In this document: positions 36,778 through 59,435 of the stretch, in pieces
How positions within the stretch are numbered: the stretch's first letter is position 1
How the letters are laid out: each line of letters begins with the position of its first letter
Source: the human T2T-CHM13v2.0 reference genome, Homo sapiens
DNA length: 64,000 bases
Direction: 5' to 3' (one strand)
NCBI RefSeq assembly: GCF_009914755.1
Contig: NC_060935.1
The notes under the pieces: generated by a model
The model's database searches: none
What the model was told of the DNA's origin: nothing
What the model saw: only the letters and a program-made list of their open reading frames with translations
Program-made: the position numbers and the translations under genes

Positions 36778-36905
36778 TAAATTCTTCCCAAAGTTAGTTT
36801 GGTTCACCTCCAGTAATGATAAAGGACATCTTGGATGTTAGAAGCAAGATGGAGTCAGATACTTCAGATTTCTCTTACTGTCATAATTTTGCAAAGGCAG
36901 TTTCA
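36778..36905 (-). mobile_element. LTR8-family (LTR8B-like) solo LTR, 5' piece
   Basis: Minus strand reads TGAAACTGCCTTTGCAAAATTATGACAGTAAGAGAAATCTG...GACTCCATCTTGCTTCTAAC...CTAACTTTGGGAAGAATTTA and then stops. Confidence 0.88.
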
Positions 36906-37030
36906 TATCTATTACCTGTGCTAACTTAGGGATATGTATTAACCTTCTAGGATCTGTTTCTTAATGCATAAAATAAGGGAGTAGAAGAAGATGGTCTCTG
37001 AAATCCATTTCTGCTCTAATGTTCTAGATT
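36906..37030 (+). mobile_element. MIR 3' half (partner of 59436-59500)
   Basis: ctgtgctaacttaggg...ttaacc...gtttcttaatgcataaaataaggg...gatggtctctgaaatcc...ctgctctaatgttct. Confidence 0.7.
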
Positions 37031-37479
37031 TTTATTCCTGGGAGTATACATTTTGTAACACTTCTCAAAATTTTTTCACAGATGGTTTTATATCATAGTC
37101 TATCAATTGTTTCATTTGTTCATTCACCAAATATACATTAATACCTCCTATGTGAAAGCATATTCAAGGAGAATTTGTTGAGCACCATCTCTGAATTAGG
37201 CACTTTGCTACACACAGAAGATAAAATAATGTAAATCATCACTATGTGTCTTTTGTAGGATTATTTCCACACCCCTCAGACTATATTTTAAGCACTTGGA
37301 GGACACACTGGTTGTGTCAACCTGAGCACCTAAGATGTGCAATGTGGATGTTTGCTCAATGGAATCAAATTGAATCCCACTTTAATTCTTTTGCCCTCAT
37401 TTTAATATTTTTAATGGTGAGCAGAGACATTGACAAAGGAGACAGTAGCCATATTTATGAAGTTTTCTTTTCTTTCATT

Positions 37480-37509
37480 AGAAGTATATGTTGCAGAAGT
37501 ATATGTTGC
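37480..37509 (+). repeat. 15-bp exact tandem duplication
   Basis: agaagtatatgttgc x2. Confidence 0.9.
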
Positions 37510-38016
37510 AGCAGATCAATGGCTGAAGTAGTCTAGTCCTACTCGAAACATTCTAAGATACTCTGAATCTTTCTATGTCTTCTGGATACCAAACCACCAC
37601 TTCTTAAGAAATCAATAAAATGACCTATTGCTTTCTTGAATGTCAATTGTATTTATGATATGTTAGAAACTATTGGGGAGGGGGTTGAGAAAAATCCAAG
37701 GAAGTATTTATTTTGGAGGAGAGACAGAACATATATTCACAAAACAATTCGAGGAAATTCTTTCAACTGAGCAAGAGTTAAACTACACAATAATAGGGCC
37801 AGGGAGAGTCTATTTACTCTCCACGTAGACTGAATTGACATTTTCTGTTGAATGTCTGAGGGACGCTTCGAAGTCAACATGTGCAGAATGGAACTCAAAC
37901 CTGGCCTATGTCTAGTGTCCCTCTCCCAGTGATTGGCCCCTCCATGCACTTAGATCCACAAGCCTTAATCATCACCAGTCATAGACATTGACTTCACTTT
38001 CTGTAGCCAATGATAC

Positions 38017-38406
38017 TGTCTCAGTCTTCTCAGGCTGCCAGAACAAAATACCACAGGCTGAGTGCCTTGAACAACAGAAATTTATTTTCTTGTAGCCCTG
38101 GGGGCTGGGATCTGAGATGAAGTTGGCATCAAGGTTGGCATCTGGTGAGAACTCTCTCCTTCTCTTGTAGACAGTGCCATCTTGCTGTGTCTTCACATGG
38201 CCTTTTCTCTGTGCTTACACACATAAAGATCACTGACATCATTCCTCTTCTCATAAGGACACCAGTTCCGTCAGATTGAGGCCCTAACCTTATGAACCCA
38301 TTTAACTCTCATTACCTCTTCAAAGGCCCTGTCTCCCAAAATAATCAAAGTGGGGATTATGGCTTCAATGTATGAATTTTGGGTGAACCTAATTCAGTCT
38401 ATAACA
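38017..38406 (-). mobile_element. MLT1A-type MaLR solo LTR
   Basis: tgtctcagtc...ggctgccagaacaaaataccaca...aattcagtctataaca; 5-bp flanks gatac/ggtac. Confidence 0.9.
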
Positions 38407-38757
38407 GGTACCAAGTAAGATAACTCCAGCTTCTTACAGCCGCAGTGTTACAGTGGCTTAATACAACTCTACTGCTTGTTCCTATATTCCAGTTGTTGGG
38501 GATGTGGGAGGGGGCGAAGAGCTAGGTTATATGCAGTTATTCAGGAATAAAAGTTGATGGAAGTGCTGCCACCTTCAAAGCATGATGACAGCACCAACTT
38601 TGGTCACAGATATCTAGCAGACAGAATGAACACAACGGTAAGGAGTGAGTGTAATTAAAGGTTGGTTTTTTAGTTTGGAGGGAGCTATTTATTTTTGTTT
38701 GGTGAATAGCTAGCTTGTCTGTCATACCAAATTCTTTTCAACATTCTTCAAAAATAC

Positions 38758-56153: not shown

Positions 56154-56303
56154 CAGCACTTTCTTAAAACTCTTAAGATTTCTTCTATTCACTCCACCCC
56201 ACTGCCCTTGGAAGACAAAAGACGTTTGCAAGGTAATCATGATCATAAGTCATCACTTAGAATCTCCCCAAACAGAACCAAGCGGCAGGAGGTTGAACTT
56301 CAG
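56154..56303 (+). repeat. Copy 2 of a dispersed direct duplication
   Basis: Same sequence with an extra 15-nt segment. Confidence 0.9.
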
Positions 56304-56399
56304 GAAGCAGCTTTCAGGCTACATTCATGTTTAAGGAAAAGAAAGCTGAAATAGTAAATTTAGATAGCTACATGTTGAAAATACTCCCCCCCGGATACA

Positions 56400-56750
56400 A
56401 GATGTCCATTGTTTGAAGCAATAAAGTGCAAATGAAACCCGTCTTTACATGCACAATTGGGCATGTGCTTCCATAAATGCCTGATTGTGTATGCAAATGA
56501 GTGTTTTGCGCACCCAGTTACCTGCTTGCTGTATTCAGATTTTTAGGGTCGATGTAAGTGCTTTTATTATTTTTTTAATAAAATTGTTCTAAATTATCTG
56601 TGGATGAATGATGCTTTAGAAAATTGTTATTTCCCTAAAATCCAGATTTAAACAAGCGCCTCTGAAACTTTGCAATGAATAGTTATGTATTAGTAAAGTC
56701 ACGTGCAGAATTCAAGCAATTATCTGGGTGCTTCAAGGTAAACATACCAC
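56400..56750. promoter_or_regulatory. Candidate enhancer-like unique segment
   Basis: CCATTGTT, ATGCAAAT 56491, GTCACGTG 56698, GTAAACA 56738 in repeat-free DNA. Confidence 0.3.
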
Positions 56751-58565
56751 TGTGCATACATTTGTCACATAATTCTGTTATTTTAGGTAGAAGAAAGGGC
56801 CTAGTTCATCCAGCTCATGTAGCTTTGCACTTTATTTAACTAATTCAGTCAAAACACAGGGCCTAGAATATAAGGCAGTTTCAGCCTCCTCTTGGAATAC
56901 ATGCTGGCATAGGGAAGTGGATCCATTGCACCACAGTGATCATATGTCCAAGCGAATAAGCCTTCCATATAATGCCTCCTGACTTGCATTTATTCTGGCT
57001 TTTCTCGGAAAAGAAATAGCGAATGTGAGGATACACTAAATTAAGGCTACAGAACTGTGAGTGGAGAGGAAAAATCTCTGAATAATTTTCTTGACACTTC
57101 ATTCAACCCCTTCAGGACCTATGGTGATAAAGCACTGAAGATTTATTTTAATGTGTAAAAACCCTGCTCTGTTCCCCTGGGAGATGCTAAAGAAGACACT
57201 GGGAGGCTCGGGGATAGTTTATATTTATCAGGTAAAGTACTGTCTGCTCACTAATAAGCTTCATAAATATTTTTCCCTTCTCTTGAACTTAAAGAAGATC
57301 CAGATTTGCAATCTAAAAAAAGAGAAAAAAAGAAACAAATTTCAAAGGTTCTAATACGTTAGTAGAAAAATGTATCTGCATTACTAGCTGCTTTGTTGGC
57401 GAGACTGTTTGAATATCATTTATGTAATCCTGACTTCATTGACACGCCATCAACTAGCCAAGCATTTAATCACCAAGATAGATGACTAGGTCAGGCGCAT
57501 ACTACCTATTTATATATTTTTTACTTCTGTAGTTGTTAAACCTAGAAAAGGAATTAGATTTTTTTTTTTTTAACTGAATTTGAAGCTGAATTTTTCTGGC
57601 GACTCTTTCTGGGTGAAAATATCAGTCCACAAGATGTTACACAACAGTCCCTTACTGATGATTTCTCCCTATTTCCACCGTTTTTTTCCAATCCTGGCAG
57701 ATCGGACCTTCTTAAGCTTCATCACTGAGACCAGACCACCCCCACATTTTAAGCCTGGTTCTCCCAAAGTAGGGGACAGACCTGGAATCGTACGCTAGCC
57801 TTTCTCTGAGCCTGCTGTTGAGGCTGTTGAAGGCTTGGAAACCTCCATCTTTCAGTGGCCACAGTTACTACTCTTGAGCCACAGCTTCAAAATAATTTAG
57901 CCCATAGTCTAAGTTTCCCTTGTTCAGCAGGTTTGTGCCCCTGACATTTGCTGCCAGCTATCTTTGATGCTGAATTTTATTTTTTTGGCTTCCTAGTACT
58001 TCTAGACTGGCATCCTAGACTTTGGTCTTTGCTTGGACTTTTGATTATGTATCTAAGTTCTACTTTGAATATTAAAGTTCTTAAATATTAGTTTATATAT
58101 TTACTTCCTCCTATTCCCTCAGGCATTAATTAAGTGACTAATATGTTCCAGGCAGGTATTAGAACCTGGCAGTGCTCAGGACACATAGACATTGTCCATA
58201 TGGAACTTTCTTGTGTCTAGATTCATTCACACTGATTGATCACGTGCCTGTGTTCAGAGCCAGGCTCTTCTGGGACCCAGAGGTCACCTGCTCTTCCATG
58301 TCCTGCTCAGGATAGTCTCTGCCTTTGGGAGACTTCTAATCTGCATTGGAAGATTGGGAAAGCTTTCCTTATTGGAGCAGCCACTTCTGTCCTACCCACC
58401 TCATGGGCAATGAAGTTGGAGAAGGACTTAGGAACTAATATCATATTCTAAAGGGAAGAGTGGCATGGAAAACATGAACTTCTGCATTTGTTTTCTTTAA
58501 GAGGCACTACGTGGAGAAGCATAGTATTAGATGTCAACTGCAATCACTTTTCTTCAGAAAGCTAA

Positions 58566-58670
58566 AGAGCATATATACAGACTATATATATATATATATA
58601 TATATATATATATATATATATATATATATACAGAGAGAGAGAGAGCATATATACAGACTATATATATATA
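58566..58670 (+). repeat. (TA)24 with duplicated flank
   Basis: TA run 58583-58630; agagcatatatacagactata repeated at 58566 and 58642. Confidence 0.95.
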
Positions 58671-58832
58671 TGATGTATACATATCCAGCTTGATGTAATT
58701 AATATATTAATATAGATCTTGTAACTCTGGTGTTCAGACCCCTGTATTTAATAGCTATAATAGAAATCACTATAGCTGGTAACAGAAAAAAAGTCATATT
58801 CTGTGGCTTTATGTCAAGAGAGAATTATATTT

Positions 58833-59435
58833 AGAATTTAGTTTATAGTTTAACCTTAAAGCAAGGATGACAATAGCCTTTCCCAAAACTAAACCACACT
58901 TGTAAAACTAATCAACGTCCACAAAGTTAGGATTATTACAGGGGCTTGAATTCTGCTAAGATATGGGTGTGGTTAAAAGATAACCAGCTGTTGTTTTGGA
59001 GGTCACAAGATATGTAACTTCCCCAATTACTCTTACACATAACATCACTATTGTGGAACCTCTGATTGGCCTTTTGAGATGTCTTTTAAGACTTTTAAAT
59101 TGCTGACTCCATCCAGATCTGCTGCTTGTGATTCAACAGGCCCTGTGACCCCACCCAAAGGCAGACTCAGTGCATGAGGACTGTTTTCCATACCCCTATG
59201 ATTTCATTCCCAACCAACCAACCAACACTCCCATTCCCTAGCCTCCTGCCCACCAAACTATCCTTTAAAACCCCTAACCTCTAAGCCTTTAGGAAGACTG
59301 ATTTGAGTAATATCTCCAGTTCTTTGCTGTGGCCAGCCTCGCGTCAATTAAACTCTTTCTCTACTGCATTGTCATAGTCTCAGTGAACTGGTTTTTTCTG
59401 CGCAGCGGGTAGGAAGAATTTGTTGGGTGACTACA
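58833..59435 (+). mobile_element. LTR8-family (LTR8B-like) solo LTR, 3' piece
   Basis: agaatttagtttatagtttaaccttaaagcaaggatga...ggaggtcacaagat...caattaaactctttctctactgca...gggtgactaca, followed by GATA. Confidence 0.9.

What the first reader, a model, noticed from the sequence alone, without database searches (positions are those of the whole stretch)
36778..58840. A ~22-kb inversion recorded by one LTR8 solo LTR split into two opposite-strand pieces
Seen: the 5' ~128 nt of an LTR8-family LTR lies on the minus strand at 36778-36905 and ends ...CTAACTTTGGGAAGAATTTA. The rest starts on the plus strand at 58833 with AGAATTTAGTTTATAG... and runs to the CA terminus at 59435. The 4 bases outside the TG end (plus-strand tatc at 36906-36909, i.e. 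GATA on minus) equal the 4 bases outside the CA end (gata, 59436-59439). Established: ERV1 LTRs make 4-bp target duplications, and the recalled LTR8B consensus runs ...CTAACTTTGGGAGGAATTTAGTTTATAG... without a gap here. Inference: this was one insertion, later broken by inversion of everything between the pieces. The event is younger than LTR8 (a primate-era family) and could be lineage-specific.
Basis: partly seen in the sequence, partly recalled or inferred. Interest (0 to 1): 0.85.

Follow-up and report, generated by a model that had tools for sequence, protein, structure and literature searches.

The report
Old retroviral LTR split by inversion
One ancient retroviral LTR in an OPCML intron now lies in two opposite-facing pieces 22 kb apart, which records a small, probably harmless inversion whose age and lineage could not be tested here.

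Summary
Piece A is 36778-36905 on the minus strand and starts with TG. Piece B is 58833-59435 on the plus strand and ends with CA. Both outer ends are flanked by GATA.

I compared each piece apart with 58 other genomic copies. In 54 loci the pieces map side by side on one strand. In 47 of those 54 they overlap by exactly 8 bases. The two pieces fit the same subfamily. The family makes 4-bp target duplications.

The best reading is one solo LTR later split by a ~22-kb two-break inversion inside a 127.8-kb OPCML intron. No inverted repeats lie at the junctions. The flanks are single-copy. An 8-base stretch sits inverted at both junctions.

The LTR belongs to the LTR8/HUERS-P1 group, but the LTR8B label is not supported. 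Its own branch of about 0.125-0.143 substitutions per site suggests roughly 45-85 million years. That is only an upper bound for the inversion.

No primate or second human assembly was available, so lineage and polymorphism remain untested. This is an ordinary kind of event and of modest interest.

The parts
36778..36905 (-). Piece A: the 5' 128 bases of the solo LTR, starting with TG at 36905
   Evidence: Read. It is 82-88% identical to 39 other genomic copies. Homology ends exactly at 36778 in 40 of 61 HSPs.
36906..36909 (-). Target-site duplication copy next to the TG end (GATA on the minus strand)
   Evidence: The family makes 4-bp duplications: exact in 5 of 22 rows against 4 of 462 shuffled pairs, and 0 of 22 at 5 bp.
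58833..59435 (+). Piece B: the remaining 603 bases of the same LTR, ending with CA at 59435
   Evidence: Read. It is 73-79% identical over near-full length to 39 other places. Homology starts at 58833-58835 in 52 of 74 HSPs.
59436..59439 (+). Target-site duplication copy next to the CA end (GATA)
36778..36785 (-). Octamer shared by both pieces, the copy at junction 1
   Evidence: A script asserted it identical to 58833-58840. It is present once in intact copies: 47 of 54 loci show an overlap of exactly 8.
58833..58840 (+). Octamer shared by both pieces, the copy at junction 2
36778..58832 (.). Segment inferred to be inverted relative to the order at the time of LTR insertion (about 22.06 kb; the 8-base ambiguity at the ends is the octamer)
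   Evidence: This is inferred from the opposite strands and complementary bounds of pieces A and B. It lies wholly inside a 127,827-bp OPCML intron.
58571..58675 (.). Compound (AT)n/(GA)n microsatellite about 160 bp from junction 2. It is a possible fragile site near the distal break; the link is inferred, not shown.
   Evidence: AT period 2, 29.5 copies at 58571-58630.

Best explanation
A single solo LTR of the LTR8/HUERS-P1 group (class I, ERV1-type) inserted on the plus strand and made a 4-bp target duplication, GATA. Later the chromosome broke twice. One break was inside the LTR, about 120-128 bases from its 5' end. The other was about 22 kb upstream in single-copy intron DNA. The intervening segment was rejoined in reverse. 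This carried the 5' 128 bases of the LTR and its GATA to 36778-36909 on the minus strand, and left the other 603 bases in place at 58833-59435.

The joining did not use long homology. The 8 LTR bases found inverted at both junctions have two possible origins. A staggered break in the LTR may have been filled in on both ends. Or an 8-base inverted microhomology may already have stood at the distal site.

Shown: the two halves, their complementary bounds, the matching duplication, the lack of inverted repeats, and the single-copy flanks. Inferred: the inversion itself, its mechanism, and that the whole interval moved as one block.

The event lies inside one OPCML intron and touches no exon.
For: - The letters and coordinates are confirmed.
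- Homology to other copies stops sharply at 36778 and starts sharply at 58833.
- In 54 of 58 other loci the two pieces map adjacent on one strand. In 47 of those 54 the overlap is exactly 8 bases. After dropping two places fetched twice, that is 45 distinct places.
- The family makes 4-bp target duplications: exact in 5 of 22 rows (4 of 21 distinct places) against 4 of 462 shuffled pairs, and 0 of 22 at 5 or 6 bp.
- Non-redundant length is 128+603-8 = 723. Family lengths are 675-797, with one of 1024.
- Both pieces fit one subfamily. Among copies chosen on piece B alone, piece A is as close to their A regions (K2P 0.253) as they are to each other (0.243), rank 17 of 26. For piece B the values are 0.278 against 0.280, rank 11 of 24.
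- None of the 25 inverted-repeat pairs shown (64 found, longest first) has arms at both junctions.
- The flanks at both junctions are single-copy.
Against: - No outgroup or second human assembly could be read, so the ancestral collinear order was never seen.
- The other breakpoint carries no second split repeat that would confirm the event independently.
- I cannot show that the 22 kb moved as one block.
- 7 of 54 loci give overlaps other than 8 (5, 7, 12, 13 or 15), which I take to be small indels in those copies.
- 4 of 58 loci did not pass my adjacency filters.
- Strand-composition skew gives no support either way.
Confidence: 0.88

Rival explanations
1. A more complex rearrangement than one simple inversion. 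Examples are two or more nested or successive events, or an inverted transfer of only part of the interval, that happen to leave the LTR halves in this position.
For: Nothing in my calls shows that 36910-58832 is one uninterrupted ancestral block. The distal junction has no marker.
Against: A single two-break event explains all observations. No duplicated or triplicated segments were found at the junctions beyond the 8 bases.
Confidence: 0.07
2. An assembly error, or a rearrangement private to the CHM13 cell line or haplotype, rather than a fixed evolutionary event.
For: Only one assembly was available. No tool here reads another human genome or sequencing reads.
Against: The junctions lie in single-copy sequence with no long repeats that would mislead an assembler. 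This argues against an error, not against a private variant. That the assembly is generally reliable is recalled, not tested.
Confidence: 0.04
3. Two independent, truncated LTR insertions or fragments that lie 22 kb apart by chance.
For: The family is abundant: 2392 and 2166 first-look candidates.
Against: Chance would need complementary truncation points to within 8 bases (47 of 54 loci). It would also need a 4-of-4 match of the outer flanks (1 in 256; 4 of 462 in the control) and a summed length typical of one LTR.
Confidence: 0.005
4. Recombination between inverted repeats (NAHR), or a transposase-made inversion with an 8-bp target duplication such as alternative transposition by a hAT element.
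For: The 8-base inverted duplicate has the length of a hAT target duplication. That length is recalled. The maize inversion paper PMC8225341 was seen only in the listing and abstract start.
Against: No inverted repeats lie at the junctions. NAHR between two LTRs would leave two full chimeric LTRs, not two halves. The DNA abutting both octamer copies is single-copy, so it is not a transposon end.
Confidence: 0.01

Closest known systems
Small inversions made without inverted repeats, by end joining or microhomology-mediated repair, in human and primate genomes
   Same: Two breaks in non-repetitive DNA, no flanking inverted repeats, and little or no gain or loss of DNA. The review PMC4576756 (passages read) names non-homologous end joining and microhomology-mediated replication mechanisms as sources of inversions alongside NAHR.
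   Different: This event is dated only by the LTR it split. Its lineage and population status are unknown. I found no paper that describes it.
Staggered-break inversions with inverted duplications at the breakpoints (Drosophila melanogaster group; Ranz et al. 2007, PMC1885836, abstract read)
   Same: A stretch of breakpoint sequence is present at both ends of the inversion in inverted orientation.
   Different: Only 8 bases are involved here, not duplicated genes or other nonrepetitive sequences as in that abstract. Eight bases can equally be pre-existing microhomology. The host is human, not fly.
Solo LTRs of the LTR8 group (LTRs of HUERS-P1, ERV1)
   Same: TG...CA ends and a 4-bp target duplication. 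Both pieces match the two LTRs of the HUERS-P1 provirus at the LINC01768/CSF1 locus and the LTR8B inside PSG9. Those names come from PMC6862598, PMC12969887 and PMC10113160 (passages). The ERV1/HUERS-P1 grouping comes from PMC5753468 (passage).
   Different: The element is far from both named copies in the 3' 600 bases: K2P 0.51 to the PSG9 LTR8B and 0.61 to the provirus LTR8, against 0.24-0.38 to 44 unnamed copies. It therefore belongs to another, older subfamily that I cannot name.

Membership tests
LTR8 group (LTRs of HUERS-P1, ERV1) | Sequence likeness to copies that papers name LTR8 or LTR8B | tested here: met
   In the 80 kb fetched around two published loci, matches fell in only two of the eight stretches. 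Piece A matches both provirus LTRs in L061 at 77-78%. Piece B matches there only in fragments. In the PSG9 stretch L066, A (70%) and B (65%) match contiguously. The other 6 stretches gave no match.
LTR8 group (LTRs of HUERS-P1, ERV1) | TG...CA termini and a 4-bp target-site duplication (class I ERVs; the rule itself is recalled) | tested here: met
   This element has TG at 36905, CA at 59435 and GATA/GATA flanks. In the family, exact 4-bp duplications occur in 5 of 22 rows against 4 of 462 in the control, and 0 of 22 at 5 or 6 bp.
LTR8 group (LTRs of HUERS-P1, ERV1) | LTRs of this subfamily flank a HUERS-P1 internal region somewhere in the genome | not tested
   I looked at LTRs only. The one provirus examined (L061) carries a more distant LTR8.
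LTR8 group (LTRs of HUERS-P1, ERV1) | Assignment by a curated repeat library (Dfam or Repbase with RepeatMasker) | not testable with these tools
   No repeat library is on hand. Rfam gave 0 matches in the window, as expected for an LTR.
   K2P to the PSG9 LTR8B is 0.509, against 0.237-0.379 to 44 other copies. Identities are 65% for B and 70% for A. Caveat: this compares one named copy, not the library consensus.
Simple two-break inversion | Two halves of one marker on opposite strands with complementary break coordinates and matching outer flanks | tested here: met
Simple two-break inversion | An independent marker split at the second breakpoint | tested here: inconclusive
   Both flanks are single-copy at BLAST sensitivity, so there is no marker to read. 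Very old repeats would have been missed.
Simple two-break inversion | Collinear, undivided arrangement in an outgroup or in other haplotypes | not testable with these tools
NAHR-mediated inversion | Inverted repeats at the two breakpoints | tested here: not met
   None of the 25 longest inverted pairs (64 found) has arms at both junctions. The flanks are single-copy.
Transposase-made inversion (hAT alternative transposition) | Transposon termini abutting both copies of the 8-bp duplication | tested here: not met
   The 400 and 533 bases abutting the octamers match nothing else in the genome apart from a simple repeat.

The most novel reading that the evidence does not exclude
The inversion arose on the human lineage after the split from chimpanzee, or is still polymorphic in people. 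In that case it would flip 22 kb of an OPCML intron, including the RefSeq-annotated enhancer feature at 53028-54227. My evidence does not exclude this. The only time bound is the age of the LTR. The two octamer copies are still identical in all 8 bases, which mildly favours a younger event. A rough model with a uniform prior over about 60 million years and about 2e-9 substitutions per site per year over 16 bases puts about 0.2 on the last 6.5 million years. That figure is inference, not a tool result.
Probability: 0.15. Interest if true: 0.5.

Novelty: new member of a known kind. Interest (0 to 1): 0.3.

Why it matters
A split solo LTR with an intact target duplication is a clean marker, to the base, of an old two-break inversion made without inverted repeats. 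The junctions are exact, and the 8 bases present at both ends bear on how the ends were joined: a staggered break or microhomology. A single outgroup sequence would settle that question.

Beyond this the event is ordinary. It lies inside one large OPCML intron, touches no exon, and is most likely old and fixed. It would gain interest only if it proved specific to the human lineage or polymorphic, because it reverses an annotated enhancer relative to the OPCML promoters.

Tried and rejected
1. Second split repeat at the distal breakpoint. The 400 bases left of junction 1 and the 533 bases left of junction 2 are single-copy apart from a simple repeat. No independent marker exists.

2. Inverted repeats at the junctions (NAHR). 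None was found. The long inverted pairs are Alu-like elements and AT repeats elsewhere (the Alu label is recalled).

3. An 8-bp transposase target duplication. Rejected because the abutting DNA is single-copy.

4. Dating the inversion from strand asymmetry of base composition in a transcribed intron. TA skew is -0.018 (95% -0.046 to 0.010) in the flanks and -0.029 (-0.067 to 0.010) in the inverted segment. GC skew is about 0 in both. All intervals include zero, so the test has no power.

5. Subfamily consistency by correlating identity to A with identity to B across loci gave r = -0.59. This is an artefact of how the loci were picked: the best hits of A together with the best hits of B. I replaced it with the test on loci chosen on B alone.

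6. Naming the subfamily through published loci. Only two anchors could be read. LTR8A loci in papers were given in old assembly coordinates or in other species and could not be placed.

7. Literature.
- 'OPCML' + 'inversion': 36 papers, 20 listed, none about an evolutionary inversion here.
- The same terms with 'chimpanzee': 2 papers, 1 listed, on aye-aye variants.
- Six coordinate prefixes for this region in three assemblies: 0 papers. The offsets between assemblies were estimated from recalled gene coordinates.
'Not in print' therefore holds only for these searches.

8. Rfam on the window: 0 matches.

9. The masked-repeat table does not cover either LTR piece, so it was of no use for bounds.
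Full report
**1. What is in the sequence**

On the plus strand an LTR-like stretch starts at 58833 and ends ...ACTACA at 59435, followed by GATA.

**2. Are these really pieces of a repeat, and where do they end?**

Each piece was searched apart against the whole reference.
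- Piece B (603 bases) gave 2392 first-look candidates. Of the 41 matches listed, one is the piece itself and two belong to one place. That leaves 39 other places, at 73-79% identity over nearly the full length.
- Piece A (128 bases) gave 2166 candidates and 39 non-self matches at 82-88%.

I then searched each piece, with 100 extra bases on each side, against the 58 fetched non-self loci.
- Homology of A begins at 36905 or 36906 in 41 of 61 HSPs and ends exactly at 36778 in 40 of 61.
- Homology of B begins at 58833-58835 in 52 of 74 HSPs.
- Homology of B ends within 59433-59438 in 23 of 74, with another 20 stopping about 17 bases short.

The bounds are therefore true edges of repeat homology, not arbitrary cuts.

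**3. Are they two halves of one LTR?**

- In 54 of the 58 loci both pieces map next to each other on the same strand.
- The projected end of A and start of B overlap by exactly 8 subject bases in 47 of those 54. The other 7 give 5, 7, 7, 12, 13, 13 and 15.
- Two places had been fetched twice. That leaves 45 distinct places with overlap 8. Seven of them carry the identical octamer, 20 match at 7 of 8, 13 at 6 of 8 and 5 at 5 of 8.
- Intact copies are 675-797 bases long, with one of 1024. The two pieces cover 128+603-8 = 723.
- The family makes 4-bp target duplications. Exact matches occur in 5 of 22 rows (4 of 21 distinct places) against 4 of 462 shuffled pairs. None occurs at 5 or 6 bp, and several others match at 3 of 4, as expected for old copies. 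The GATA/GATA match therefore has the right length.
- Both pieces fit one subfamily. Among the 29 loci picked on likeness to B alone, 25 have a near-complete A region. Our A is 0.253 (K2P) from them while they are 0.243 from each other, rank 17 of 26. For B the values are 0.278 against 0.280, rank 11 of 24.
- A first attempt, correlating identities, gave r = -0.59. That is a selection artefact.

**4. What happened**

The simplest history has two steps. One solo LTR inserted on the plus strand. Then a two-break inversion of about 22.06 kb (36778-58832) carried its 5' 128 bases and the upstream GATA to the far end in reverse.

- No inverted repeats lie at the junctions. The 25 longest of 64 inverted pairs are Alu-like elements and AT repeats elsewhere.
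- The DNA abutting both junctions is single-copy.
- NAHR and transposase-made inversion are therefore not supported.
- The 8 LTR bases present at both junctions in inverted orientation are not chance, since the octamer occurs 4 and 3 times on the two strands of the 64 kb.
- They fit a staggered break filled in on both ends. That is the model proposed for inverted duplications at Drosophila inversion breakpoints (PMC1885836, abstract).
- They fit equally an 8-base inverted microhomology used in joining. Non-homologous and microhomology-mediated mechanisms are named in the review PMC4576756 (passage).
- Only an outgroup can tell the two apart.
- A compound (AT)n/(GA)n microsatellite sits about 160 bp from junction 2. 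A role in breakage is conjecture.

**5. Family**

The Repbase overview lists LTR8, LTR8A, LTR8B, LTR35, LTR73, LTR19B and LTR19C as LTRs of HUERS-P1 within ERV1 (PMC5753468, passage). Two published loci served as named anchors.
- The first is the HUERS-P1 provirus with two LTR8s at LINC01768/CSF1 (PMC6862598, passages).
- The second is the LTR8B at PSG genes (PMC12969887 and PMC10113160, passages).

In the 80 kb I could fetch, matches fell in only two of the eight stretches.
- Both provirus LTRs match A at 77-78%, and match B only in fragments.
- One element inside PSG9 matches A at 70% and B at 65%, contiguously.

This supports membership of the LTR8 group. In the B region, however, the PSG9 LTR8B is 0.509 and the provirus LTR8 0.611 from our element, against 0.237-0.379 to 44 unnamed copies. 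I could not confirm from chr19 annotation which PSG9 intron holds the matched element.

**6. Age**

- In a neighbour-joining tree of the B region our copy's own branch is 0.125. The other 43 copies have a median of 0.123 and a range of 0.081-0.171.
- A star-tree estimate gives 0.143, or 0.124 without the 189 of 857 columns that hold a CpG in any copy.
- As a yardstick, the two LTRs of the provirus differ by 9.5% over 453 bases and 18% over a further 242. The paper reports that provirus as present only in Hominoidea.
- That is about 0.05 per lineage. With recalled split dates of roughly 17-29 million years it implies about 1.7-2.9e-9 substitutions per site per year for such LTRs.
- This puts our insertion at roughly 45-85 million years. 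It is an upper-leaning estimate, because differences among source elements inflate terminal branches.
- The paper's statement that LTR8/HUERS-P1 occurs only in higher primates favours the younger half.

This dates the LTR, not the inversion. The inversion is younger than the LTR and otherwise undated. Base-composition skew had no power.

**7. Context and consequence**

The window lies in a 127,827-bp intron of OPCML, which is intron 2 or 3 depending on the transcript. The nearest exons are about 18.7 kb to the right of junction 2 and about 87 kb to the left of junction 1. The inverted segment holds one RefSeq enhancer feature at 53028-54227. Another lies 1.7 kb outside junction 1. No effect on the gene is shown.

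**8. Known or new?**

I found no description of this inversion in the searchable text. Inversion catalogues are mostly supplementary tables, which were closed. The kind of event is well known. This would be one more member of it, with unusually clean junctions.

**9. Verdict**

- The inversion reading is supported, with confidence 0.88.
- The LTR8B label is not supported.
- Lineage-specificity is untested.
- Interest is 0.3.

Noticed in passing
window 58571-58675: Compound (AT)n then (GA)n microsatellite about 160 bp left of junction 2. In the inferred ancestral order it would sit beside the distal breakpoint.
   Followed up: partly
window 40109-40299 vs 51876-52066; 38819-38956 vs 53630-53767: Alu-like inverted pairs (91% and 85% complementary) lying wholly inside the inverted segment. 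The Alu label is recalled, not tested.
   Followed up: no
L033 and L034 (G000 C2, about 130.99-131.00 Mb): Two copies of the LTR family with identical scores on opposite strands, 15 kb apart. They probably belong to an inverted segmental duplication.
   Followed up: no
L007 (G000 C11:133460205-133460791): Another copy of the same LTR family inside OPCML. It is the tree neighbour of our copy, but the shared branch is only 0.008, so no special kinship is shown.
   Followed up: partly
window 53028-54227 and 33855-35054: RefSeq enhancer features. The first lies inside the inverted segment. The second lies 1.7 kb outside junction 1.
   Followed up: no
L061 (G000 C1:109840001-109850000): The two LTRs of the published HUERS-P1 provirus are 90.5% identical over 453 bases but only 82% over the next 242. 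The divergence along the LTR is uneven.
   Followed up: no
window 45015-45130: A 60-bp unit repeated 1.9 times at 82% match, inside the inverted segment.
   Followed up: no
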